Below, one piece after another: positions 3,804 through 20,774 of a stretch of DNA of 32,000 nucleotides. The position numbers and the translations under genes are program-made. The stretch is from Desulfallas sp. Bu1-1 (GTDB taxonomy: Bacteria; Bacillota; Desulfotomaculia; Desulfotomaculales; Desulfallaceae). The first letter of the stretch is position 1; every line of letters begins with the position of its first letter. Below the pieces are notes generated by a model. That model was not told the origin of the DNA and ran no database searches. It saw only the letters and a program-made list of their open reading frames with translations. The stretch is from positions 260,563 through 292,562 of the forward strand of contig NZ_JADNRQ010000002.1 in the NCBI RefSeq assembly GCF_015594625.1, given 5' to 3'.

Positions 3804-4568
3804 TTAATAAGTTAAGTGCCGGGCACCACTGCTGGACCTGCGGTCTTTTACGTAAACGCTACCCGGCAGGGACTTGGCGTAGCGTTTGAGCTGAGCCGCC
3901 TTTTCCGAAAATTTTTTCTGGTCGTACAGGCAATCGCGGCCAGTGCATTCAACAATGGTCATGGATATAGAAATTAAAGGGAAAAAAGTCTCCCCGCCGC
4001 TCCGGTCGCAGCCGCGTATTCCTCCCGCCGCACGGTCCTCCGAGTCGTAAAAGCGGCGGATCAGCCGGTCGAAATACCGGGCAATTTTTGCGCATAAAAT
4101 CTCTGCCTTTTCCGGAACGGTTATGATGATAAAGTCATCGCCCCCGATGTGGCCGATGAAATCATTTCTGGTGCCGGACTTTTTTACGACGCTGTTCAAG
4201 AGAGTGGCGGTAAACAAAATCACCCGGTCACCGTTTTCAAAGCCATACCTGTCGTTATAAGACTTGAAATGGTCCAGGTCCAGGTAGATCACCGCGCAGT
4301 CCTCATCTTCCCCGGCACGCCTGGACAGTTCCTGCTCGATGGCTATATTTCCCGGCAATCCGGTCAGCGGGTTGGCGCCCCTGGCTATCTCCAGCCGGAT
4401 TTTGGTCATGGTATCAAGTAAAGTCTGGACCGATACAACCCCCTTGAACATCTGATTTCTTGTAACAATGATATAATCGTAGAGCTTGAGCCTGTCCCGG
4501 TTCATGGCAACCTGGGAAACCATTTCAATGGGAGTGTTTTCCTCCACCACCAGGGGGGAAGTGTCCAT
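3804..4568 (-). CDS. CBS-like module plus GGDEF domain protein (motif GGDDF)
   Basis: PLVVEENTPIEMVSQVAMNRD...YDYIIVTRNQMFKGVVSVQTLL is CBS-like. It is followed by NPLTGLPGN, YLDLDHFKSYND and HIGGDDFIII. Confidence 0.8.
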   Translation of the reverse strand: MDTSPLVVEENTPIEMVSQVAMNRDRLKLYDYIIVTRNQMFKGVVSVQTLLDTMTKIRLEIARGANPLTGLPGNIAIEQELSRRAGEDEDCAVIYLDLDHFKSYNDRYGFENGDRVILFTATLLNSVVKKSGTRNDFIGHIGGDDFIIITVPEKAEILCAKIARYFDRLIRRFYDSEDRAAGGIRGCDRSGGETFFPLISISMTIVECTGRDCLYDQKKFSEKAAQLKRYAKSLPGSVYVKDRRSSSGARHLTY

Positions 4569-11148: not shown

Positions 11149-12507
11149 TTATTGAATGTGGTTGGAATTTTCCCCGGCCAGCCGCCAGCAGTTTCTGCCT
11201 TCCCGCTTGGCCCTGTAAAGGGCTTGGTCCGCAAGATCGACCAGCTCCGCGGCTTCGCCGGCGTGCGCCGGAAAGCTGGCGCCGCCGAGGCTGATGGTCA
11301 ACCTTCCCCCGGGCTGGCGCTCCCCGTTGGGAAAAGGATATTCCTCCACCGCCCGGCGGGTGTTTTCCATCACTTGCACCAATCCTTCCGGCCCGGTGTT
11401 GGGGAGGATCACCAGGAATTCCTCGCCGCCGTACCTGGCGATGATGTCGGATTGCCTGAGCGTCGCGGCAAGTATTTTTCCGAGGGTTTTCAGCACCATG
11501 TCCCCCGCGGGGTGCCCGTTAGTGTCGTTATAATGTTTGAAGTGATCCACATCCAACATAATTACGGACAGAGGCGACTCGCTGCTGGCAGCGTCCATTA
11601 TTTCCCGTTTCAGGGCGTATTCCATGTACCTCCGGTTATACAAACCCGTAAGAGGATCCCTGCTAACCTCGCTGGCAAGCACGGCCAGCTGTTTTTTGCG
11701 CTTTAATATATTATCGATTTTAAGCAACAACTCCCGGCGATCAACAGGTTTAGTGATAAAATCATCTGCCCCGTGCCGGAGGCTGTTAAGCTTGTCCTCC
11801 TGGTCGTTCAAAGTAGTGATGACGATAACCGGCACCCCGGAAGTAGCCGGCGTCGACTTGATACGGCGGCAGACCTCAAAACCGTCCATGCCGGGCAGGA
11901 CCAGGTCCAGCAGCACCAGGTCGGGAACGTGTTCCAGAGCAAGTTTTAAAGCTTCGTGCCCGTTGGTGGCGGTAATGATATCCATATCCCGGCCTTCCAG
12001 GTACCGCAGCAATACTTTCATCTGTAAGGGACTGTCTTCCACCACGAGAACCAGCGGTTTATCTTTAAGTGACTCAACCGGTTTCTCAGCGCTACTCTCA
12101 GCCCGCTTCCCGCTTGCCATCAGGGAATTTATAGCTTCGGCAAGCTTACCGGGGCAAACGGGTTTGCTGACGGTCTCACCGGCAGACAATGCCTGCAACG
12201 GCGACACCTGACGTAAATCCTTCGCATCTTCGACAGTAATGACTAGGACGGAGGGGGGCGGCGAAGCGTTCTCCACCAGCCGGGCCAACGCTTCCATTTC
12301 CGTCTTGTCGCCGGGTGAATCCACAATCAGTATGTCGGGCGGCGTACAGGCAATTACCCGGGCTAAAGCTGTCAGTTTGCCGGCCACCTGTAGACAAAAC
12401 AAATTGTAGTCCAGGGACCTGGCCACGGTTTCAATAGTGGTGATATCAGAACTGTAGAGAGCAATACACCCGGTCATTTCTTTGATTTCCATACGCTCAC
12501 CATGCAT
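11149..12507 (-). CDS. response regulator diguanylate cyclase (degenerate REC, canonical REC, GGDEF), PleD-like
   Basis: The second REC has VVEDSP, DLVLLDLVLPGMDG, VIVITT and FITKP. The GGDEF domain has DPLTGLYNRR, MLDVDHFKHYND and RQSDIIARYGGEEF, i.e. GGEEF with an RxxD I-site 5 residues upstream. Confidence 0.9.
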   Translation of the reverse strand: MHGERMEIKEMTGCIALYSSDITTIETVARSLDYNLFCLQVAGKLTALARVIACTPPDILIVDSPGDKTEMEALARLVENASPPPSVLVITVEDAKDLRQVSPLQALSAGETVSKPVCPGKLAEAINSLMASGKRAESSAEKPVESLKDKPLVLVVEDSPLQMKVLLRYLEGRDMDIITATNGHEALKLALEHVPDLVLLDLVLPGMDGFEVCRRIKSTPATSGVPVIVITTLNDQEDKLNSLRHGADDFITKPVDRRELLLKIDNILKRKKQLAVLASEVSRDPLTGLYNRRYMEYALKREIMDAASSESPLSVIMLDVDHFKHYNDTNGHPAGDMVLKTLGKILAATLRQSDIIARYGGEEFLVILPNTGPEGLVQVMENTRRAVEEYPFPNGERQPGGRLTISLGGASFPAHAGEAAELVDLADQALYRAKREGRNCWRLAGENSNHIQ

Positions 12508-12851: not shown

Positions 12852-13250
12852 TTATACCCCTTGGGGGACATAGTGATTTGTCCAATCACCTACTGGACCA
12901 ATGGTAGGCCGGTCCCCATCATCTGAAGTATTTAATTCATAGTTTCCCTCACCGGCACCTTCTAACCCACAACCTTCAGGTATTACCATAGATGAAGCAC
13001 CCTGTACATAATCATCAAGATCACTTAGGTCATCTGGCCATTCGCCTTCTACTGCTCTATATTGGTCTATTGCTCCATCAAGTATGCGCAAATTAGCATC
13101 ATGTGCCCTCTGTGCAGCCCCTCTGGTAGTACTATTATAAATCGGCACCGCAATCGCAACCAAAATACCAATGATAACCACAACCACCATCAGTTCCACC
13201 AAAGTAAAGCCCTTCTGGTTCTTCATCTGGCGGCACAGTTTGTAAAACAT
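12852..13250 (-). CDS. pilA: type IV major pilin
   Basis: MFYKLCRQMKNQKG/FTLVELMVVVVIIGILVAIAVPIY is a canonical prepilin motif. A strong RBS, GGAAAGGAGGTG, lies 8 nt upstream. Confidence 0.9.
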   Translation of the reverse strand: MFYKLCRQMKNQKGFTLVELMVVVVIIGILVAIAVPIYNSTTRGAAQRAHDANLRILDGAIDQYRAVEGEWPDDLSDLDDYVQGASSMVIPEGCGLEGAGEGNYELNTSDDGDRPTIGPVGDWTNHYVPQGV

Positions 13251-13305
13251 AGCTTTTTCACCTCCTTTCCGTCATATTTAAAAATGCCATTTTTTTCTTA
13301 ATAAC

Positions 13306-13314
13306 ACTATACCA
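13306..13314 (-). promoter_or_regulatory. candidate extended -10 element for pilA (TGgTATAGT)
   Basis: The minus strand reads ttgtTGgTATAGTgtt about 55 nt upstream of the pilA ATG. No good -35 is present. Confidence 0.3.
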
Positions 13315-13359
13315 ACAAAAATCATTTTGAGACACTTATCAAAATAATTGATCAAGTCG

Positions 13360-14040
13360 CTATTTTATCGAACCTTTAGCGGTAAGGATGATAATCCGGC
13401 CGTCCTTGTCCAGGGTTACCCGGCCCCCGGCCGGGTTAATGTTCAGCACCCGGTACCCGTTAAAGGATTCACCTTCCCTGACGTCGTAAAAGTTATCCTG
13501 GTGGCTGAAATAAGCATGATTCTCGCCGTTTTCAATGTAAGTGGTGACAAGTTCGGGGCCGCCGGCAACCGGCATGCGGTCCTCCGGTACTATAGCAGGA
13601 GAATCACCGTTACCAGTTGTTTCCCCTGCTGTTTTTGTGGAATTTTCCGAAGCGTAAGCCACTACCAAGGGCTCAAAGGGATCGCGCCACGAACCGCTTT
13701 TCGGCTTTTCCACCGGTCCGGGCCCTGCGGGCGGGGACGCCGCCGCAACCCCGGTTACCGGCGTGCCTGGCGCTGCGCCGGTAACCACCGGCGCCTGTAC
13801 AAGCGGGTTAAAGGGGTCCTGTTCCGGTTTAACTAGATTTTGTTTTTCTGTGCCTTTGCCATTTTCTGCGGCGGATTGATTGATACTGTAAGCACCCGTT
13901 TCACCAGCCGCGGCGAGGACAGCCGGCGGTTTTCTCAAGTCACTGCCGCAGCCTGCGGCGGCCATTGCCGGAATGACGCACAGCAGGCTTAAAACAATTG
14001 TCTGCAACAATATTTTTCTGCGGCAGGTATCCCCGGTCAT
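13360..14040 (-). CDS. probable lipoprotein with Pro-rich linker, PilP-like C-terminal domain
   Basis: Signal peptide KILLQTIVLSLLCVIPAMAAAGC (lipobox-like), then a Pro/Ala/Gly-rich linker. The C-terminus reads FYDVREGESFNGYRVLNINPAGGRVTLDKDGRIIIL. An ATGA overlap links it to pilO. Confidence 0.6.
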   Translation of the reverse strand: MTGDTCRRKILLQTIVLSLLCVIPAMAAAGCGSDLRKPPAVLAAAGETGAYSINQSAAENGKGTEKQNLVKPEQDPFNPLVQAPVVTGAAPGTPVTGVAAASPPAGPGPVEKPKSGSWRDPFEPLVVAYASENSTKTAGETTGNGDSPAIVPEDRMPVAGGPELVTTYIENGENHAYFSHQDNFYDVREGESFNGYRVLNINPAGGRVTLDKDGRIIILTAKGSIK

Positions 14041-14603
14041 TTTACCTCACCTGCCTTGCCCGGAGGCTGAGCTTCCGAGTAAAAAGCGCTGGCGGCAATC
14101 TCGGCCTTAATCTGGGGGAGTTCCTCACGACCCTTGCCGATTTTGATATTATCAATGCGCAATGCCCTCGGCCCGTCCTGCAGGTCCGCCAGCAGGTCAA
14201 GCAGTGCGTGGTAGCGCCCCTCGAAAGTGATCCTGAAAGGCATCTCTACATAATCCTGTTTTTTTACACGCTGCTCAAAGCGGACCTGTAAAAAGTGCAT
14301 GCCTGATTTTTGAGCAATGTTAGTAATATCTGTAATCAACATATCTTCGGCTGGTTCCGCAGGTAGAACTTTATTATATAACGCCAGCTGTTCCTGCAAA
14401 CCAGCGGACCGCTCTTTGACGCGCGTCAATTCCCGAAGGCGTGCCCGGGCGCTTTCAACGGCCGCCTGTTCAGTGGCCGCCATGTCCCTGGCTGCTTTAA
14501 AAGCGGTGACCTGGTTATACATCAGAAAAGTTATTAGTCCCAATATTGCAAACCCCAAAGCCCCCCATAGAAGGGTGCGGTTTTTCTTTTCCGCCAAAAT
14601 CAC
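14037..14603 (-). CDS. pilO: type IV pilus assembly protein PilO
   Basis: Single N-terminal TM, a coiled-coil, then a ferredoxin-like C-terminus (MPFRITFEGRYHALLDLLADLQ). It sits immediately after pilN. Confidence 0.8.
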   Translation of the reverse strand: MILAEKKNRTLLWGALGFAILGLITFLMYNQVTAFKAARDMAATEQAAVESARARLRELTRVKERSAGLQEQLALYNKVLPAEPAEDMLITDITNIAQKSGMHFLQVRFEQRVKKQDYVEMPFRITFEGRYHALLDLLADLQDGPRALRIDNIKIGKGREELPQIKAEIAASAFYSEAQPPGKAGEVK

Positions 14604-15299
14604 TTACCCGCCTTTCCTTCCAACCGGGTGATAAGCCGGTCCCGGCAGCAGCGCAGCCTTGATTTCAAACTGAATCATGGGCTGTTCCAAAAGGTTTTCC
14701 TCGGAAGAGAACTGGCAGCGGATATCAGCCAGCCCTGGAACACGCTGTAAATCTTTCAGCCACTGGGCCACTGCCAAGTGGTCGAAGGCCCAGCCGCGGA
14801 TAACCAGCTCTCCGGCTGAAGTGTCAGGTGAAGATTGCGCCGGTTCGTTTAACAATTGTTGCTGCCCCTCCGACGATTCCCGGGGATTGTCCCCGCCTTG
14901 ACCTGCCGGGGCTTTATTGCTTTCGTCAACCTTATATGTAGCTGATAAATCCGTCAGCCATATGTTTACGGGCATGTCCAGCCCGATACCGGCCAAAACC
15001 CTTGCCCAGTCCGGAGGCGTTCCCACGGCCCGGCGCACAAGACTGCCGGTTCGCGTCACCTGATCCTGAATCCCGGCATATTGCTCGAGGGACTGAATTT
15101 TACTCTCCAAAGCTTCACGTTCCCGCTGCAACCTGGCAACCTCGGCCCGCGCCTTGATGGTATTGATGGTCAGCGCGCTGTAGGCGCCGGCTACAATTGC
15201 CAGTACCAAAGCACAGGCCACCAGCAACAGGTGCATCCTTCTCTGCTGCTCCTGCCGGGCTAAAATTTCCGGGGGTAATAAATTAATGCTTACAGGCAT
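14604..15299 (-). CDS. pilN: type IV pilus assembly protein PilN
   Basis: MPVSINLLPPEILARQEQQRR is the conserved PilN N-terminus that binds PilM. It is followed by a TM and a coiled-coil. Confidence 0.85.
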   Translation of the reverse strand: MPVSINLLPPEILARQEQQRRMHLLLVACALVLAIVAGAYSALTINTIKARAEVARLQREREALESKIQSLEQYAGIQDQVTRTGSLVRRAVGTPPDWARVLAGIGLDMPVNIWLTDLSATYKVDESNKAPAGQGGDNPRESSEGQQQLLNEPAQSSPDTSAGELVIRGWAFDHLAVAQWLKDLQRVPGLADIRCQFSSEENLLEQPMIQFEIKAALLPGPAYHPVGRKGG

Positions 15300-15303
15300 A
15301 CCT

Positions 15304-16341
15304 TCAGGCCTCCAACCCGCGCAGAGCCAGGCCGATACTTACGGCAAAGTCCGGATATTCCCGTTCCGGGCTGATATTGTTAGCCCCACCCTGCCCTTTT
15401 ATTCTGGCCAGGGGGTTTATTATTTCCACCGGCAGGTCCAGCGCCGCCTCCAGCAGTTCCGGCAACCCCGCAAAACGTGCACCGCGCCCGCTGAGAACCA
15501 GCTTGTCCGGAGGGGCCGCGTTGGGCTGAGCAAGATAATAGCTGATAGACGATCTAATTTCGCCGGCCAGTGCCGCTGCCCAATCATCCTGTGCATTTCC
15601 AGCGTTATCATTGCTCTCCGCCGTTGAAGCCACCTGGCTCATCGCCTGTTCCAGGACCGTGTCCATGGGATAACGCTGTTCACGGGCATATGTTTGCAAG
15701 GAAAGCGGCACCACCCGCGCAAAGCGTGGAAAACCACCGGCAATTAACAGCAGCGCGGTTAAGCCGTTGGATATATCAACCAGGGCTGCACTGGCATCCA
15801 ATTGATCTTCCGGCAATGTACGCATTAGCGCCAGGGGGGAAGCGTCTATAATTACCGGTTTCAGGGAAGCTTCCGTTAAAGCCTGGATACTTTTATCCAG
15901 AAAATCCCGCCTGGCCGCCACCAGCAGCACCTCCAGCTCGGGACCGTTCTCCCCGTTATATTCGCTGATTACCGAGTGGTCGAGCACCAGCTGAGAAAGC
16001 GGAATCGGAAAATATTCTCCAGCATGAAAACGCAGCGCCCGGGCCAGCTTTTTCTCGGGCACTTTCGGAAACCTGGCCAGCCTCATGAGCACCCCTTGAT
16101 TGGAAATACCTAGAACAACTTCGCGCTTCTTAATCCGGGCTTTCGACCACAACTCGTCCAAAGCTTCCGCCACCGGGGTGACTTCCATCACCACCCCTTC
16201 GGACACCGCGTGCTCGGGAATGGTAATCTCCTCTAATGCGGTCAAGGAGAATGAACGCATTGTGCCTTTAATTTCAGCAACCCGAACAACCCCGGTGTCC
16301 AGTTCCAGGCCCACCGCCCCTGCCGGTTTGAAAAATCCCAA
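15304..16341 (-). CDS. pilM: type IV pilus assembly ATPase-fold protein PilM
   Basis: Actin-like fold motifs (GLELDTGVVRVAEI, VDISNGLTALL, LSGRGA). TTG start with AAGGAG upstream. Confidence 0.9.
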   Translation of the reverse strand: MGFFKPAGAVGLELDTGVVRVAEIKGTMRSFSLTALEEITIPEHAVSEGVVMEVTPVAEALDELWSKARIKKREVVLGISNQGVLMRLARFPKVPEKKLARALRFHAGEYFPIPLSQLVLDHSVISEYNGENGPELEVLLVAARRDFLDKSIQALTEASLKPVIIDASPLALMRTLPEDQLDASAALVDISNGLTALLLIAGGFPRFARVVPLSLQTYAREQRYPMDTVLEQAMSQVASTAESNDNAGNAQDDWAAALAGEIRSSISYYLAQPNAAPPDKLVLSGRGARFAGLPELLEAALDLPVEIINPLARIKGQGGANNISPEREYPDFAVSIGLALRGLEA

Positions 16342-16420
16342 AAGTAATCATCTCCTTCAACTTTAATTGGAAGTCAGGATAGGGCTTGGGCAATCAAATT
16401 AAGGCTCCTTGCCGGCATTT

Positions 16421-17629
16421 TTACCTCCCTACAGAGGTGACTACGTTAAATATGGGCAGGTAGACGGCAATAACGATACCGCCGATGATAAAGCCGACAA
16501 AGATAATTAACACCGGCTCGATAAGCGCGGTCAATCCTTTGGTCATGGTGGACACTTCTTCCTCGTAGAACTCGGCCACCTTGGCAAGCAACGTGGAAAG
16601 ATCGCCGGTTTCTTCCCCGACAGCCACCATATTGGTGACCATCGGCGGGAAAAACCCGCTCTTCTCCAGGGGTAAGGCAATGCTCTGTCCTTCTTGAATC
16701 CCTGCCCCGGTCTGTTTGACCGCTTCGGTGACCCGGATACTACCGGACGCCGGGCCGGCGGCATCCAGTGCCTGCAGCACCGGGATACCCCCGGCAAGGA
16801 GTGTGGCCAGTGTACGGCAAAAGCGGGCGATGGTAGCCTTTTTAAAAAGCTCGCCGAAAACAGGCAGTTTAAATTTAATGTAATCCCACGCCCGTTTGCC
16901 GGAATCGCTGCCGGCATATAAGCGCAAACCGGTGACAACCAGGATAAAAAACAGCAGGTAAATATACCAGAAATTACGCAGCGAATCGCTTAAAGCAATG
17001 ATAATCCTGGTGGGCAGGGGCAGGGCCACACCGGTTGGAAAGAAATTCATAAATATGGGAACGATGAAAAACATCATCGCCAGCACGACACAGGTGGCAA
17101 AGAGCACAATGACAACCGGATAAAAAGTGGCGGAACGAATATGATCCCGCAGGCTTTTATCCCGCTCAAGCTGTTCGGAAAGGCGTTTCAGCATTTCTTC
17201 CAGCGAGCCGCCTATTTCTCCCGCTTTAACCATGTCAACGTACATGGTGGAAAAAACATCCGGGTGGGCAAGCAGCGACTCGGAAAAACTTGCCCCGCTT
17301 TCCACATTGCGCGCGACCTCGCCGGTAACACGGCTCAAGGTGGGGTTTGTTGTCTGTTCGTGCAACGTATAAAGACAGCGAGTCAACGGGATGCCGGCTG
17401 CAAGCATGGCCGCCAGCTGCCGGCTGAAAAAGCTGAGATCCCCGATACCGACTTTTCGCCGCATCTCAAATGCTTTCTTAAATTGGGACTGTTTCACTTC
17501 CGACAAATCAACAACGGTGTAGCCCATCCTGCGCAACCGTGCAGCAGCCGTCAATTCATGCTCGGCTTCCAGCTTACCCGTTATTGAAACCCCTGTCCTG
17601 TCATACGCTTGATAAGCATATAAGGGCAT
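16421..17629 (-). CDS. pilC: type IV pilus platform protein PilC (GspF family)
   Basis: Two GspF repeats, three TM segments, 402 aa. Confidence 0.92.
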   Translation of the reverse strand: MPLYAYQAYDRTGVSITGKLEAEHELTAAARLRRMGYTVVDLSEVKQSQFKKAFEMRRKVGIGDLSFFSRQLAAMLAAGIPLTRCLYTLHEQTTNPTLSRVTGEVARNVESGASFSESLLAHPDVFSTMYVDMVKAGEIGGSLEEMLKRLSEQLERDKSLRDHIRSATFYPVVIVLFATCVVLAMMFFIVPIFMNFFPTGVALPLPTRIIIALSDSLRNFWYIYLLFFILVVTGLRLYAGSDSGKRAWDYIKFKLPVFGELFKKATIARFCRTLATLLAGGIPVLQALDAAGPASGSIRVTEAVKQTGAGIQEGQSIALPLEKSGFFPPMVTNMVAVGEETGDLSTLLAKVAEFYEEEVSTMTKGLTALIEPVLIIFVGFIIGGIVIAVYLPIFNVVTSVGR

Positions 17630-17674
17630 ACTATCACCCTTCCTCCGGGCACTATGTAATAACTGGTTATCGTA

Positions 17675-18760
17675 TTACAGGTAGTTTCTCCGCAGCGCCC
17701 TTTCCAGCTCGGTCCGGTCAACACAACGTGCCAGGGCCGTTTCCCGGCTAATGACCCCGGCCAGGCATAAATCGGCCAGGGCCTGGTCCATGGTCTGCAT
17801 ACCCATGTTTCGCCCGGTTTGCATCACCGTGTACAGCTGGTGCTCTTTACCCTCCCGGATTAAATTTTTCACCGCCGGGGAGGTAAGCAATAATTCCACG
17901 ACAGCCACTCTACCCTGACCGATCTCCTTCGGAATCAGCTGCTGGGCTATGACGCCCTGCAGCGAATCGGCAAGCTGTTGTCTGATCTGGCTGCGGGTAC
18001 CCTCCGGGAATACATCTATAATACGGTGCACGGCAAGGGTCGCGGTTTGGGTGTGCAACGTTGAGAACACAAGGTGCCCGGTTTCAGCGGCAGTAAGGGC
18101 AATGGAAATACTCTCCAGATCCCGCATTTCCCCAATCATGATCACATCGGGGTCATGGCGCAGCACGTGCCGGAGGGCATTGGCAAAGGAATGAGTATCA
18201 TTGCCTACTTCCCGCTGTTTAATTATGGATTTTTTATGACTGTGTAAAAATTCAATGGGATCTTCCACTGTGACAATATTCAAGCAGCGCTCTTCATTGA
18301 TCAGGTTAATAATTGACGCCAGGGTAGTCGATTTGCCGCTGCCGGTCGGCCCGGTAACAAGCACCAGGCCGCGCGGCAGGCGGGCCAGTTCCTTAACCGC
18401 CGGCGGGAGGCCCAAATCTTCCAGGCGCGGTATATTCATGGCCACCACCCGGAAATTGACGGCCAGCGAACCGCGCTGCCACATGATGTTACACCGGAAA
18501 CGGCTGACACCGCGAATTGAATGCGAAAAATCCAGCTCCAGGTCTTTTTCCAGCTTCTCCCTGTGGTGGGGCCCAAGAACGGGAAAAATAAGATCTTCTA
18601 TATCCTGGGGCATTAAAACCGGGAGATCCTCCATTGGAACCAGTTCCCCGAATACACGAACAACCGGTCGGGAGCCTGCCGTGAGGTGAAGATCGGAGCC
18701 TTTCATTTCCACCGCGCGAGCCAGGATTTGATTGAGATCCGGCAGATTTTGTTGAATCAT
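17675..18760 (-). CDS. pilT: twitching-motility retraction ATPase PilT
   Basis: GPTGSGKSTT Walker A, Asp box, VIMIGEMRD Walker B, His box TGHLVFSTLHT, 361 aa. Confidence 0.93.
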   Translation of the reverse strand: MIQQNLPDLNQILARAVEMKGSDLHLTAGSRPVVRVFGELVPMEDLPVLMPQDIEDLIFPVLGPHHREKLEKDLELDFSHSIRGVSRFRCNIMWQRGSLAVNFRVVAMNIPRLEDLGLPPAVKELARLPRGLVLVTGPTGSGKSTTLASIINLINEERCLNIVTVEDPIEFLHSHKKSIIKQREVGNDTHSFANALRHVLRHDPDVIMIGEMRDLESISIALTAAETGHLVFSTLHTQTATLAVHRIIDVFPEGTRSQIRQQLADSLQGVIAQQLIPKEIGQGRVAVVELLLTSPAVKNLIREGKEHQLYTVMQTGRNMGMQTMDQALADLCLAGVISRETALARCVDRTELERALRRNYL

Positions 18761-20436
18761 TGTACCACCCTCATTAATTCTTCCAGTGAAGTAACGCCCT
18801 GTTTCACCTTCACCAGTCCATCCCGGCGCAGGGTAACCATCCCTTCGGCAACCGCGGTCGCCTTAATATCCTTTGCTGACTTTCGCTCAAGGGTCAGGCG
18901 CTGGATGCTTTCAGTGACAAACAGGAGTTCATAGATGCCGGTTCTACCCCGGTAACCCGTATTACTACAACGCATACATCCCCTGGGGCGGTAAAGCTTT
19001 AAGGTTGTTTCATTTTCATCCAGGGGAAAATCCGGTATATCCAGCAATTTTTCCAGCGTTAGCTCATAAGGTTCTTTACAGTTGGGACAAAGCACCCGGA
19101 CCAGGCGCTGGGCCATAATACATACCACGGACGATGCGGTTAAAAACGGTTCTATACCCATTTCGGCCAGGCGGGTAATGGCACCGGCGGCATCATTGGT
19201 ATGCAGCGTTGAAAAAACCAGGTGACCCGTCAGGGCCGATTCGATGGCTAACTTTGCGGTCTCTTTATCTCTGATTTCACCAACCATGATAATATCCGGG
19301 TCACTGCGCAGGATCGACCGTAATCCTGACGCAAAGGTAAGCCCGGCCTTGGGATTAATCTGAATTTGATTAATCCCATCCATGCGGTATTCAACAGGGT
19401 CTTCAATAGTGATGACGTTTTTCGCCACTTTATCCACTGTAGCCAGGCTGGCGTAAAGCGTGGTGCTCTTGCCGCTACCCGTGGGGCCGGTGACCAAAAT
19501 ACAACCATAAGGGAGGTTGATTATTTCCCGGTACTTTTCCAGGATTTCAGGGGTAACACCAAGTTCTTCAAGGGTAATCATTTTAGACGAGCGGTCCAGG
19601 AGCCGCAAGGTTAACCGTTCACCGAAGCTGGCGGGCAGCGAAGCAACCCGGGCGTCAATGGTCCGCCCCTCGATTTTCAGTGACACCCGCCCGTCCTGGG
19701 GTATCCTGCGCTCGGCAATGTTCATGTTAGCCATAATTTTTATCCGTGAAACCAGTGAAGCGTGCATTTGCCCGGGCAGTTGCATGATGTCATGCAAAAC
19801 GCCGTCAATTCTGAAACGCACCCGCACATAGTTTTCATATGGTTCGATATGTATGTCACTCGCCTTGGTGCCAACCGCCTGGGCCAGAATCATGTTGGCC
19901 AGCTGCACGGCAGGCTTGGCGGCAGATTCTTCCTCTTCAAGGGTAATATCCTCTTCCTTTTGTTCCTCATTATCCAATTGATCAAACTCCATACCGGCAC
20001 GGGTATATTTTTCTATTGCGGCGCTCAATTCACTATCCGGCACAACCACCGGTTTAATGTCATACCCGGTGAGAATGCGCAGGTCGTCAATAGCCATGAT
20101 ATTATCAGGGTGCTGCATAGCCACGGTGAGCTTGTCACCATTGAAAGCAATAGGCAAAACATTATATCTTTTTAAAGCCTCCGCCGGCAATGTGGCCACA
20201 GCGGCGGGATCAATCCGGAAATTTTCCAGTGAAATAAATGGAACACCGGCGCGCTTGGCAATTACCCTGGCTATGTCGTCTTCAGTGCAATATCCCAGCT
20301 TCACCAGTACTTTGCCGAGATAATTTTGTTTATCTTTACTCAGTTTTTGATTATTCAGGGCTTCATTTAATTGTTCTTCTGTTATTACACCTTCTTTAAC
20401 CAGCCATGTCCCAAGAAAATTTTTTGCAAATTTCAT
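18757..20436 (-). CDS. pilB: type IV pilus assembly ATPase PilB (GspE family) with MshEN-type N-terminal domain
   Basis: GPTGSGKSTT, IIMVGEIRD, TGHLVFSTLHT and the tetracysteine CPNC...CMRC. The N-terminus has two LGxxLVxxG repeats. I prefer the ATG at 20436; a GTG lies at 20439. Confidence 0.93.
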   Translation of the reverse strand: MKFAKNFLGTWLVKEGVITEEQLNEALNNQKLSKDKQNYLGKVLVKLGYCTEDDIARVIAKRAGVPFISLENFRIDPAAVATLPAEALKRYNVLPIAFNGDKLTVAMQHPDNIMAIDDLRILTGYDIKPVVVPDSELSAAIEKYTRAGMEFDQLDNEEQKEEDITLEEEESAAKPAVQLANMILAQAVGTKASDIHIEPYENYVRVRFRIDGVLHDIMQLPGQMHASLVSRIKIMANMNIAERRIPQDGRVSLKIEGRTIDARVASLPASFGERLTLRLLDRSSKMITLEELGVTPEILEKYREIINLPYGCILVTGPTGSGKSTTLYASLATVDKVAKNVITIEDPVEYRMDGINQIQINPKAGLTFASGLRSILRSDPDIIMVGEIRDKETAKLAIESALTGHLVFSTLHTNDAAGAITRLAEMGIEPFLTASSVVCIMAQRLVRVLCPNCKEPYELTLEKLLDIPDFPLDENETTLKLYRPRGCMRCSNTGYRGRTGIYELLFVTESIQRLTLERKSAKDIKATAVAEGMVTLRRDGLVKVKQGVTSLEELMRVVQ

Positions 20437-20543
20437 CACAACTTAACCTCATGGGATAAATATTAACAGATTTTTTATTGTCAATTATTTTCTCGAAAAG
20501 CAATTATTCTCCTTCTTGACGGGCCATATTGTCACACCTAAAT

Positions 20544-20583
20544 ACAAAAAACAAAAAGTGCGGTATTAAACAATTGCCCGCAC
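20544..20583 (-). terminator. intrinsic terminator forming the expression platform of the leader RNA
   Basis: The minus strand reads GUGCGG, a 14-nt loop, CCGCAC, then UUUUUGUUUUUUG. The stem can extend to AGGUGCGG/CCGCACUU. Confidence 0.75.
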
Positions 20584-20667
20584 CTGGTTGCCCGGCCGCC
20601 ATAGCATTATGCCTTAGGCCCGTAACTCTGCGCCCGCTCCTTTCGGAACGTTTGCCTTTTTCAGGTA
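20582..20667 (-). promoter_or_regulatory. candidate c-di-GMP-I (GEMM-I) riboswitch aptamer in the pilB leader
   Basis: ACCUG-AAAAAGGCAAA-[CGUUCC GAAA GGAGCG]-GGCGCAGAG-UUACGGG-CCUAAG-GCAUAAUGC-UAUGG-CGGCCGGGCAAC-CAGGU. It has a GAAA tetraloop hairpin, both halves of the 11-nt tetraloop receptor, a closing helix, and GGCAAAC and CGCA.AG blocks like the Vc2 aptamer. Confidence 0.65.
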
Positions 20668-20713: not shown

Positions 20714-20742
20714 ATTATAAGAGAAAAATGGACCAAAAACAA
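20714..20742 (-). promoter_or_regulatory. candidate sigma-A promoter for the pil leader
   Basis: On the minus strand: TTGTTT (20742-20737), 17 nt spacer, TATAAT (20719-20714). It lies about 40 nt upstream of the aptamer. Confidence 0.35.
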
Positions 20743-20774
20743 TAGCTGCCTCTTACAATTTATACGAGACAGCT
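20733..20774 (-). terminator. rho-independent terminator after aroB
   Basis: The minus strand reads AGCUGUCUC, a 13-nt loop, GAGGCAGCU (one G-U pair), then AUUGUUUUUGG. It starts 10 nt after the aroB stop. Confidence 0.6.

What the first reader, a model, noticed from the sequence alone, without database searches (positions are those of the whole stretch)
20544..20667. GEMM-I-like c-di-GMP riboswitch with overlapping terminator in the pilB leader
The minus-strand RNA between the aroB terminator and pilB has the architecture of a type-1 GEMM-I aptamer. A GGCAAAC block precedes a 6-bp hairpin (CGUUCC/GGAGCG) capped by a GAAA tetraloop. Next comes GGCGCAGAG, where Vc2 (quoted from memory) has GACGCAAAG. 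A second hairpin carries both halves of the canonical 11-nt GAAA-tetraloop receptor (CCUAAG...UAUGG). An outer helix, ACCUG/CAGGU, closes the aptamer. The 3' strand of that outer helix overlaps the 5' arm of a GUGCGG-N14-CCGCAC-U-run terminator. Ligand-stabilised P1 and the terminator therefore look mutually exclusive, which predicts an ON switch for the whole pilus operon. Two A-to-G changes in the conserved CGCAAAG block mean ligand specificity is not guaranteed.
Basis: partly seen in the sequence, partly recalled or inferred. Interest (0 to 1): 0.78.

Follow-up and report, generated by a model that had tools for sequence, protein, structure and literature searches.

The report
c-di-GMP riboswitch controlling a pilus operon
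The RNA leader in front of the pilus-motor gene pilB is a genuine class I cyclic-di-GMP riboswitch, most likely wired to switch pilus genes on when the signal rises; this is a sound but fairly ordinary new example of a well-known regulator.

Summary
Rfam RF01051 (c-di-GMP-I) matches window 20583-20666 (minus strand) at 61.7 bits (gathering score 35, E = 6e-10), and it is the only Rfam hit in the 32 kb window. The element lies between aroB and a pilB-pilT-pilC-pilM-pilN-pilO-pilin cluster, 47 nt downstream of a TTGTTT-17-TATAAT promoter that is conserved in seven species.

The same aptamer sits upstream of pilB in six other Desulfotomaculia species, with compensatory base changes in P1, P2 and P3.

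In six of the seven species, four nucleotides of the P1 3' strand are also the base of an intrinsic terminator. One of these nucleotides covaries with both of its alternative partners. Folding predicts the terminator without ligand. With P1 locked, the hairpin is truncated and moved away from the U-run. This is ON-switch logic, as in the validated Bacillus thuringiensis Bc2 riboswitch.

Caveats:
- The window has a lineage-specific A48G change in the binding pocket, so ligand affinity is unproven.
- One ortholog (Desulfallas) has no P1/terminator overlap.

An intact REC-GGDEF diguanylate cyclase lies within the cluster, so positive feedback is possible but untested. Verdict: a new member of a known kind, of modest interest.

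The parts
20744..20774 (-). aroB intrinsic terminator hairpin (AGCUGUCUC-N13-GAGGCAGCU). It is followed by AUUGUUUUUGG, and its U-tail overlaps the -35 box of the next promoter.
   Evidence: Read from the sequence. All 9 pairs are standard. The tool scan missed it because the loop is longer than 8 nt.
20714..20742 (-). Sigma-A-type promoter: -35 TTGTTT (20742-20737), 17-nt spacer, -10 TATAAT (20719-20714). The -10 box ends 47 nt before P1.
   Evidence: TTGnnn-17-TATAAT is found 25-47 nt upstream of P1 in all seven species compared. The transcription start site has not been mapped.
20582..20666 (-). c-di-GMP-I (GEMM-I, type 1) aptamer, made of P1, P2 with a GAAA tetraloop, and P3 with the 11-nt tetraloop receptor. 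Pocket residues in Vc2 numbering: G20 = 20656, A47 = 20629, C92 = 20587, C44 = 20632. The variant residues are G48 = 20628 and A90 = 20589.
   Evidence: RF01051 scores 61.7 bits, E = 6e-10. The custom model scores 102 bits. On the aptamer alignment, 92.6% of cells are paired and 11 pairs change on both sides, a level reached by 0 of 500 shuffles. Pocket residues are tabulated.
20662..20666 (-). P1 5' strand, ACCUG.
   Evidence: It pairs with CAGGU at 20586-20582. Compensatory changes are seen in L001/L002 (A-U to G-C) and L173 (C-G to A-U).
20582..20586 (-). P1 3' strand, CAGGU. Its last four nucleotides (AGGU, 20585-20582) also form the base of the terminator stem.
20545..20585 (-). Intrinsic terminator (expression platform): 5' arm AGGUGCGG (20585-20578), 14-nt loop, 3' arm CCGCACUU (20563-20556), and U-run CUUUUUGUUUUUUG (20558-20545).
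   Evidence: In the full leader the terminator pairs have probability 0.62-1.0 and the P1 pairs less than 0.03. With P1 enforced, only GCGG/CCGC remains, set 3-4 nt away from the U-run. The stem covaries across orthologs.
20434..20450 (-). pilB ribosome-binding site GAGG (20450-20447) and ATG start codon (20436-20434). They lie about 110 nt downstream of the terminator and are not sequestered by it.
   Evidence: The identical locus L170 was called with this start, giving a 559-aa product.
12852..20436 (-). Regulated type IV pilus genes: pilB (18757-20436), pilT (17675-18760), pilC (16421-17629), pilM (15304-16341), pilN (14604-15299), pilO (14037-14603), orf226 (13360-14040) and a pilin (12852-13250).
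   Evidence: Pfam hits. The genes overlap or lie at most 109 nt apart. Co-transcription is inferred, not shown.
11149..12507 (-). REC-GGDEF diguanylate cyclase with an intact GGEEF active site, an RxxD I-site and the canonical GHPAGD motif. It lies 344 nt downstream of the pilin gene and may or may not belong to the riboswitch-controlled transcript.
   Evidence: Orthologs at 60-83% identity are embedded in type IV pilus clusters in five of six contexts examined.

Best explanation
This is a class I cyclic-di-GMP riboswitch (GEMM-I, type 1, with a GAAA tetraloop and its receptor). It lies in the 5' leader of a type IV pilus operon (pilB-pilT-pilC-pilM-pilN-pilO-pilin) of an uncultured Desulfotomaculia bacterium, and it most likely works as a transcriptional ON switch.

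Proposed mechanism:
1. Transcription starts at a conserved TTGTTT-17-TATAAT promoter just after the aroB terminator.
2. The aptamer is transcribed first.
3. RNA polymerase then has about 29 nt before it passes the U-run.
4. Without ligand, the weak 5-bp P1 is displaced, because four nucleotides of its 3' strand (AGGU) are drawn into the stronger 8-bp stem AGGUGCGG/CCGCACUU. That stem abuts the U-run, and transcription terminates.
5. With c-di-GMP bound, P1 is locked. The ligand pairs with G20 and C92, sandwiches A47, and stacks on the P1 closing G-C pair.
6. Only a 4-bp GCGG/CCGC hairpin can then form, set 3-4 nt away from the U-run. Polymerase reads through into pilB and the downstream pilus genes.

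What is shown: family membership by covariance model, conservation and covariation of the aptamer and the terminator, and the shared nucleotides. What is inferred: ligand binding by this particular G48 variant, the direction of the switch, and how far the regulated transcript extends.
For: Family membership:
- RF01051 scores 61.7 bits against a gathering score of 35, E = 6e-10, and is the only Rfam hit in the window.
- G20, A47, C92 and the C44/G83 pair are present.
- The exact leader (361 of 361 nt) recurs in two independent assemblies, so G48 is not a sequencing error.

Conservation:
- The aptamer sits directly upstream of pilB in Desulfotruncus alcoholivorax, D. arcticus, Sporotomaculum syntrophicum, a Desulfotomaculum MAG, an 87%-PilB relative and Desulfallas thermosapovorans.
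- It is absent upstream of pilB in the other 150+ pilB loci scanned.
- Helices covary: 92.6% of cells are paired and 11 pairs change on both sides, matched by 0 of 500 shuffles. Structures slid by 1-3 columns pair only 28-43% of cells.

Switch logic:
- The terminator follows 24-31 nt after P1 in every ortholog. It shares 4 nt with the P1 3' strand in six of seven species.
- The shared nucleotide U/C (column 117 of alignment A1) changes together with its P1 partner (A/G) and its terminator partner (A/G).
- In the full leader, P1 pair probabilities are at most 0.03 and terminator pair probabilities above 0.9 for all but the outermost pair of each stem (0.28-0.83) and one loop-proximal pair in L002 (0.50); in the aptamer-only transcript the window's P1 probability is 0.76-0.97.
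- Enforcing P1 reduces the hairpin from -11.3 to -6.4 kcal/mol and detaches it from the U-run.

Context and precedent:
- The promoter is conserved in 7 of 7 species.
- B. thuringiensis Bc2 is a class I aptamer with a terminator, gives a terminated product of about 121 nt, and was shown to be an ON switch (PMC4933901).
- c-di-GMP switches on type IV pili through a riboswitch in C. difficile (PMC6366702).
Against: - A48, listed among the key conserved pocket residues (PMC3764141) and Hoogsteen-paired to U90 in Vc2 (PMC11705072), is G in the window. The window is the only one of the ten GEMM-I aptamers aligned with this change; the two added later, L172 and L173, also have A48. The closest different relative (87% PilB) has A48. 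Affinity or specificity could therefore be altered.
- U90 is A in most of this clade.
- Desulfallas thermosapovorans (L173) has a terminator adjacent to P1 but not overlapping it. Secondary structure alone does not predict switching there.
- The overlap is only 4 nt, and the residual hairpins keep -3.7 to -11.8 kcal/mol.
- All functional C. difficile class I riboswitches are OFF switches (PMC6366702), so direction cannot be assumed from class.
- There are no transcript or ligand-binding data for this sequence.
Confidence: 0.74

Rival explanations
1. The aptamer is decaying or detuned. The lineage-specific A48G change, on an A90 background, abolishes or strongly weakens c-di-GMP binding. The leader then acts mainly as a constitutive attenuator, and pilB expression depends on leaky read-through or on a weak internal promoter downstream of the terminator.
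For: - G48 is unique among the GEMM-I aptamers compared, and the nearest relative has A48.
- A48 is a conserved pocket residue that pairs with U90 in Vc2 (PMC11705072, PMC3764141).
- Some C. difficile c-di-GMP riboswitches are non-functional (PMC6366702).
- A weak promoter-like site, GTGACA-18-GAGAAT, lies just after the terminator at 20535-20506.
Against: - Every other element is intact and the sequence scores 61.7 bits: P1, P2, P3, the tetraloop and its receptor, G20, A47, C92, C44/G83 and the terminator.
- The clade already tolerates A at position 90, so the canonical A48-U90 pair is not required here.
- A dead aptamer in front of an intact terminator would silence an otherwise intact pilus operon.
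Confidence: 0.13
2. The aptamer is functional but its ligand preference has changed. It senses another cyclic dinucleotide, such as 3'3'-cGAMP, or is promiscuous rather than specific for c-di-GMP.
For: - The GEMM-I scaffold is known to switch specificity through single pocket changes. A20G flips the Gmet_0970 riboswitch from cGAMP to c-di-GMP (PMC6456294).
- The Sporotomaculum ortholog at the same locus has A at position 20.
- The window has an unusual G48.
Against: - The window keeps G20, A47 and C92, which is the c-di-GMP signature.
- Rfam clan competition favours RF01051 over the variant families.
- The cyclase in the cluster and its 16 closest homologs all carry the canonical GHPAGD motif, not the Ser/Thr of cGAMP-making Hypr enzymes.
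Confidence: 0.06
3. The element is an OFF switch, in which c-di-GMP binding promotes termination and represses the pilus genes, as in the C. difficile class I riboswitches.
For: - All seven functional class I riboswitches of C. difficile are OFF switches (PMC6366702).
- In L173, P1 and the terminator can coexist.
Against: - No antiterminator alternative is predicted. The unconstrained fold already forms the full terminator in every ortholog.
- In six of seven species, locking P1 removes the base of the terminator stem.
- c-di-GMP generally promotes type IV pili and adhesion (PMC6366702).
Confidence: 0.05

Closest known systems
Bc2, the c-di-GMP-I riboswitch upstream of cap in Bacillus thuringiensis (PMC4933901)
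   Same: Both have a class I aptamer followed directly by an intrinsic terminator in a compact unit. Bc2 gives a terminated product of about 121 nt; here P1 to the end of the U-run spans 122 nt. Bc2 was shown experimentally to be an ON switch by read-through in a Gram-positive bacterium, and it controls a surface/adhesion function.
   Different: Bc2 controls a single collagen-adhesin gene rather than a pilus-assembly operon, and it is found in Bacilli rather than Desulfotomaculia. The element here is untested and carries G48.
Cdi-2-4, the c-di-GMP-II riboswitch upstream of pilA1 in Clostridioides difficile (PMC6366702)
   Same: Same regulatory outcome and mechanism class: c-di-GMP relieves an intrinsic terminator in the leader of type IV pilus genes in a Firmicute.
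   Different: It has a different aptamer fold (class II, RF01786, which gave no hit here). It sits in front of the major pilin gene, whereas this one sits in front of the pilB assembly ATPase.
Vc2, the structural reference c-di-GMP-I riboswitch of Vibrio cholerae
   Same: Same type 1 architecture: a GAAA tetraloop with its receptor, G20, A47 and C92 pocket residues, the C44-G83 contact, and a P1 closing G-C pair.
   Different: Vc2 does not act through transcription termination (PMC6366702). Vc2 has an A48-U90 Hoogsteen pair (PMC11705072), where the window has G48 and A90.
GEMM-Ib cGAMP riboswitches of Geobacter (PMC6456294)
   Same: They share the GEMM-I scaffold, are ON switches with terminators, and some lie upstream of pilus-assembly genes (pilMNOP).
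   Different: They have A at position 20 and sense 3'3'-cGAMP. The window has G20. Only the Sporotomaculum ortholog (L003) carries A20.

Membership tests
c-di-GMP-I riboswitch (Rfam RF01051, GEMM-I) | Covariance-model score at or above the curated gathering threshold | tested here: met
   61.7 bits against 35, E = 6e-10, full-length match to model positions 1-87.
c-di-GMP-I riboswitch (Rfam RF01051, GEMM-I) | Three-helix junction (P1, P2, P3) supported by compensatory changes | tested here: met
   Of 25 pairs, 92.6% of cells are paired and 11 pairs change on both sides. No shuffle out of 500 reaches this, and slid controls pair 28-43%. Further P1 covariation is seen in L173.
c-di-GMP-I riboswitch (Rfam RF01051, GEMM-I) | Type 1 tertiary dock: a GAAA tetraloop on P2 and the 11-nt receptor (CCUAAG...UAUGG) in P3 | tested here: met
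   GAAA lies at 20644-20641, CCUAAG at 20618-20613 and UAUGG at 20603-20599.
c-di-GMP-I riboswitch (Rfam RF01051, GEMM-I) | Ligand-contacting nucleotides G20, A47 and C92, plus the C44-G83 contact | tested here: met
   All are present in the window. Their roles are taken from PMC5049679, PMC3764141 and PMC11705072.
c-di-GMP-I riboswitch (Rfam RF01051, GEMM-I) | Conserved J2/3 residue A48 (Hoogsteen pair with U90 in Vc2) | tested here: not met
   The window has G48 and A90. All other aptamers compared have A48, and U90 is A in L003, L004, L172 and L173. This is a conserved feature rather than a strictly defining one, and its functional consequence is unknown.
c-di-GMP-I riboswitch (Rfam RF01051, GEMM-I) | Selective high-affinity binding of c-di-GMP | not testable with these tools
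   Requires in-line probing or ITC of the RNA spanning 20666-20582.
Transcriptional ON riboswitch (P1 competes with the terminator) | The P1 3' strand shares nucleotides with the terminator stem, so the two structures exclude each other | tested here: met
   There is a 4-nt overlap in the window and in five other species, but none in L173. The constrained folds support mutual exclusion.
Transcriptional ON riboswitch (P1 competes with the terminator) | Ligand-dependent increase in read-through | not testable with these tools
   Requires single-round in vitro transcription or in vivo reporters.
GEMM-Ib (3'3'-cGAMP riboswitch) | A at position 20 in place of G | tested here: not met
   The window has G20 at 20656. 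Only ortholog L003 has A20.
c-di-GMP-I-GGC variant (RF03167) | G at position 47 (CGCGAAG) | tested here: not met
   The window has A47, and RF01051 won the clan competition for the window. The RF03167 hit on L001 reflects the P1 included in that model, since L001 also has A47.
c-di-GMP-II riboswitch (RF01786) | Covariance-model hit | tested here: not met
   No hit anywhere in the window at the gathering threshold.

The most novel reading that the evidence does not exclude
The riboswitch may be the entry point of a self-reinforcing circuit. c-di-GMP opens the terminator, and read-through extends past the pilin gene into the REC-GGDEF diguanylate cyclase embedded in the same cluster. That cyclase is intact, with GGEEF and I-site motifs, and its orthologs sit inside type IV pilus clusters across the clade. 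More c-di-GMP would then be made, possibly also acting on the MshEN-like N-terminus of PilB. The result would be a bistable commitment to a piliated, surface-attached state. [quoted passage not shown]
Probability: 0.15. Interest if true: 0.55.

Novelty: new member of a known kind. Interest (0 to 1): 0.3.

Why it matters
It adds a clade-wide example, across at least seven Desulfotomaculia species, of type IV pilus assembly genes placed under direct c-di-GMP control by a class I riboswitch with ON logic. Until now the documented riboswitch control of Firmicute pili was the class II element of C. difficile, and the class I riboswitches studied in that organism are all OFF switches. The conserved 4-nt P1/terminator overlap, with a nucleotide that covaries with both partners, is a clean natural illustration of a minimal expression platform. 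The orthologous set also contains natural pocket variants (G48 in the window, A20 in Sporotomaculum, loss of G83 in a MAG) that could be used to probe specificity and tolerance of the GEMM-I pocket. None of this changes current understanding of the family.

Tried and rejected
- The consensus terminator scan found no terminator in the leader. This is an artefact of its 3-8 nt loop limit; RNAfold and manual pairing recover the hairpins.
- The plain RNAfold minimum-free-energy fold of the aptamer alone does not reproduce the Rfam fold, and its z-score is only -0.76. This is expected for a fold that depends on ligand and tertiary contacts, so it is not counted against the finding.
- The minimum-free-energy fold of the window's full leader pairs the U-run and UAGGUG with the A-rich J1/2 and the P1 5' strand. 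This pairing is not conserved in the orthologs, so I rejected it as an A-run/U-run coincidence.
- OFF-switch logic: no antiterminator alternative was found in any ortholog.
- Exact-match look-ups of the window's PilB failed with either start codon.
- The metagenome scan with PilB returned nothing closer than 60% identity.
- I tested whether the cluster's cyclase or its homologs are cGAMP-making Hypr GGDEFs, which might match the A20 ortholog. All 17 read GHPAGD, so the answer is no.
- No GEMM-I aptamer lies next to the cyclase orthologs themselves.
- The primary Vc2 structure and mutagenesis papers (PMC2850612, PMC3146058, PMC2925111, PMC3356476) are not held, so I could not retrieve direct data on A48 mutants.
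- A literature search found no paper describing this riboswitch in Desulfotomaculum and its relatives.

Full report
**Observation**

A scan of the whole 32-kb window on both strands against all 4227 Rfam families gives one hit at gathering threshold. That hit is RF01051, c-di-GMP-I, at 20583-20666 (minus strand), with 61.7 bits against a threshold of 35 and E = 6e-10, matching the full length of the model. The suggested control RF01786 gives no hit. The hit is not RF03167 or another clan variant, because clan competition kept RF01051.

**Anatomy**
- P1 is ACCUG (20666-20662) paired with CAGGU (20586-20582).
- J1/2 is AAAAAG, with the G20 equivalent at 20656.
- G21-C22 pair with G45-C46.
- P2 is CGUUCC/GGAGCG capped by GAAA.
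- J2/3 and its surroundings read GGCGCAGAG, where Vc2 has GACGCAAAG.
- P3 carries the CCUAAG...UAUGG tetraloop receptor.
- C92 is at 20587.

In Vc2 numbering the two A-to-G changes are A43G and A48G. A43G is shared with both Desulfotruncus species and several unrelated GEMM-I aptamers, so it is unremarkable. A48G is different. A48 is listed among the key conserved pocket residues (PMC3764141) and forms a Hoogsteen pair with U90 in Vc2 (PMC11705072). The window is the only one of the ten aptamers aligned with G there, and L172 and L173, added later, also have A48. The closest different relative (L172, PilB 87% identical) has A48. Position 90 is A rather than U in the window, L172, L173, L003 and L004, so this clade does not keep the canonical A48-U90 pair anyway. 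The exact 361-nt leader, G48 included, recurs in two independent assemblies, a JGI metagenome and an SRA run. G48 is therefore real and not a sequencing error.

**Conservation**

PilB-guided retrieval of 160 loci from genomes and metagenomes, plus look-ups of closer PilB homologs, shows the same aptamer directly upstream of pilB in six further species:
- Desulfotruncus alcoholivorax (L001)
- D. arcticus (L002)
- Sporotomaculum syntrophicum (L003)
- a Desulfotomaculum MAG (L004)
- an unnamed relative with 87% PilB identity (L172)
- Desulfallas thermosapovorans (L173)

A Desulfoscipio-like locus (L174, PilB 73%) has no aptamer in its 593-nt aroB-pilB spacer. More distant pilB loci do not have it upstream of pilB either, although GEMM-I aptamers occur elsewhere near pilus clusters in a few of them (L009, L024, L026, L035, L119). 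On the aptamer alignment, 92.6% of cells form standard pairs and 11 of 25 pairs change on both sides. No shuffle out of 500 reaches this, and structures slid by 1-3 columns pair only 28-43% of cells. All seven species have TTGnnn-17-TATAAT 25-47 nt upstream of P1. In the window this is TTGTTT (20742-20737) and TATAAT (20719-20714), immediately after the aroB terminator hairpin (20774-20744). The leader is therefore a separate transcription unit.

**Expression platform**

In every ortholog a GC-rich hairpin followed by at least five U residues comes 24-31 nt after the P1 3' strand. In the window the stem is AGGUGCGG/CCGCACUU. Its lower four nucleotides, AGGU, are the last four of the P1 3' strand. 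The same 4-nt sharing occurs in L001, L002, L003, L004 and L172. The terminator stem itself covaries: U-A becomes C-G, G-C becomes A-U or G-U, and G-C becomes A-U. The most telling point concerns the shared nucleotide at alignment column 117. It is U in the window, L003 and L004, where both its P1 partner and its terminator partner are A. It is C in the two Desulfotruncus species, where both partners are G. This is one evolutionary event, but it is the pattern expected if both alternative pairings are under selection.

Thermodynamic modelling agrees. In leaders truncated at the U-run, P1 pair probabilities are at most 0.03. Terminator pair probabilities are above 0.9, except for the outermost pair of each stem (0.28-0.83) and one loop-proximal pair in L002 (0.50). 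In the aptamer-only transcript the window's P1 probability is 0.76-0.97. Enforcing P1 leaves only GCGG/CCGC (-6.4 against -11.3 kcal/mol), and that remnant is separated from the U-run by CAC. It is established that intrinsic termination needs the stem to reach the U-tract, so this is the logic of an ON switch: ligand-stabilised P1 prevents completion of the terminator. The pilB ribosome-binding site (GAGG, 20450-20447) lies about 110 nt further downstream and takes no part in these structures, so control is transcriptional.

**Evidence against, or limits**
- Desulfallas thermosapovorans (L173) has a terminator that begins right after P1 without sharing nucleotides. P1 and the terminator coexist in its predicted fold, so the overlap rule is 6 of 7, not universal.
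- The overlap is short, and in some orthologs the residual hairpins are still fairly stable (-8.7 kcal/mol in L172, -11.8 in L003).
- Direction cannot be inferred from class. C. difficile class I riboswitches are OFF switches, B. thuringiensis Bc2 is an ON switch, and the V. cholerae elements do not use terminators (PMC6366702, PMC4933901).
- G48 could weaken binding.
- Nothing here measures ligand binding or termination.

**Comparison with known systems**

Structurally and mechanistically the closest validated relative is Bc2, a class I aptamer with an abutting terminator, a terminated product of about 121 nt, and c-di-GMP-dependent read-through (PMC4933901). Here the span from P1 to the end of the U-run is 122 nt. 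Functionally the closest is C. difficile Cdi-2-4, which switches on pilA1 and the downstream pilus genes but uses the unrelated class II fold (PMC6366702). Geobacter GEMM-Ib elements upstream of pilMNOP use the same scaffold with A20 and sense cGAMP (PMC6456294). The window has G20.

Membership in RF01051 is met on score, helices, tertiary motifs and the three ligand-contacting residues. The only conserved feature not met is A48, together with U90. No paper describing this riboswitch in Desulfotomaculum and its relatives was found. [quoted passage not shown] The finding is a new member of a known kind.

**Context worth noting**

The genes downstream are pilB, pilT, pilC, pilM, pilN, pilO, a 226-aa ORF and a pilin, either overlapping or separated by at most 109 nt. 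After a 344-nt gap comes a REC-GGDEF protein (11149-12507). It has an intact GGEEF motif, an RxxD I-site and the canonical GHPAGD base-specifying motif. It is followed by a DUF7305 adhesin-like protein and four minor pilins. Orthologs of this cyclase at 60-83% identity are embedded in type IV pilus clusters in five of six contexts examined. In one it directly follows pilO, and in another it is followed 25 nt later by the DUF7305 gene. If the riboswitch-controlled transcript reaches it, c-di-GMP would induce its own synthase. [quoted passage not shown] Co-transcription is untested, and a hairpin at about 12700-12660 could terminate transcription after the pilin gene. I give this reading a probability of about 0.15.

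PilB itself has two MshEN-like 24-residue repeats at residues 7-30 and 39-62. Each matches the published c-di-GMP-binding motif except for the first-position arginine, which is F in one and Y in the other (motif from PMC5013675). Post-translational control by c-di-GMP is therefore possible but unproven.

**Verdict**

Confidence that this is a GEMM-I aptamer is about 0.97. Confidence in the full statement (c-di-GMP-responsive, transcriptional ON switch for the pilus operon) is about 0.74. Interest is modest at 0.3. The call is correct and well supported, and the element has a neat minimal expression platform and some natural pocket variants, but it is not surprising to a specialist.

Noticed in passing
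window 11149-12507 (-): A REC-GGDEF diguanylate cyclase lies inside the pilus cluster, downstream of the riboswitch-led genes. It has GGEEF, an RxxD I-site and the canonical GHPAGD motif. Orthologs at 60-83% identity are embedded in type IV pilus clusters in L161, L163/L164, L167, L168 and L169, but not in Desulfoscipio geothermicus (L165/L166).
   Followed up: partly
L003:2790-2900 (Sporotomaculum syntrophicum): The orthologous pilB riboswitch has A at Vc2 position 20 (AAAAUAGCAAAU), which is the GEMM-Ib/cGAMP signature. It also has U at position 42 and a 25-nt insertion extending the P3 hairpin. The same locus may therefore sense a different or broader set of dinucleotides in a sister genus.
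   Followed up: partly
L173:1826-1960 (Desulfallas thermosapovorans): This ortholog has the aptamer and a terminator (GCGGAAUCG...CGAUUCACGC followed by U8), but no nucleotides are shared between P1 and the terminator. Secondary structure alone predicts no switching there.
   Followed up: partly
L004:2705-2788 (Desulfotomaculum MAG): This ortholog lacks the two nucleotides that include G83, the tertiary partner of C44. It also has a U-U mismatch in P1 and scores only 40.3 bits, so it may be a weakened or decaying copy.
   Followed up: no
L174:1409-2000 (Desulfoscipio gibsoniae-like): The gene order is the same (aroB followed by pilB), but the 593-nt AU-rich spacer has no GEMM-I aptamer or any other Rfam match. 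The riboswitch has therefore been gained or lost within the Desulfotomaculia.
   Followed up: partly
window 20251-20436 (-), PilB residues 1-62: PilB has two MshEN-like 24-residue repeats, FLGTWLVKEGVITEEQLNEALNNQ and YLGKVLVKLGYCTEDDIARVIAKR. They match the published c-di-GMP-binding motif except that the first-position Arg is F in one and Y in the other. The spacer between them is 8 residues rather than 5. PilB may also bind c-di-GMP directly.
   Followed up: partly
window 3804-4568 (-): A second GGDEF-related ORF of 254 aa has a CBS fragment and only the first ~94 of 161 GGDEF profile positions. It is probably a truncated or degenerate cyclase.
   Followed up: no
L165:15043-15131 (-): A strong GEMM-I aptamer (66 bits with the custom model) lies upstream of a cheW-MCP chemotaxis pair in a Desulfoscipio-like contig. 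This is another typical GEMM context in the same clade.
   Followed up: no
L009:8000-8080; L035:6063-6137; L026:675-760; L024:683-760; L119:350-435: GEMM-I aptamers occur near, but not directly upstream of, pilB in pilus loci of unrelated MAGs, including one labelled Actinomycetes (L009). The genes they control were not examined.
   Followed up: no
window 20733-20774 (-): The aroB terminator hairpin has a 13-nt loop. Its U-rich tail (AUUGUUUUUGG) doubles as the -35 region (TTGTTT) of the pilus-operon promoter, a compact back-to-back arrangement also seen in L172.
   Followed up: partly
window 20506-20535 (-): A weak promoter-like site (GTGACA-18-GAGAAT) lies just downstream of the riboswitch terminator. 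If active, it would give riboswitch-independent basal pilB expression. It is not conserved in the orthologs inspected.
   Followed up: no
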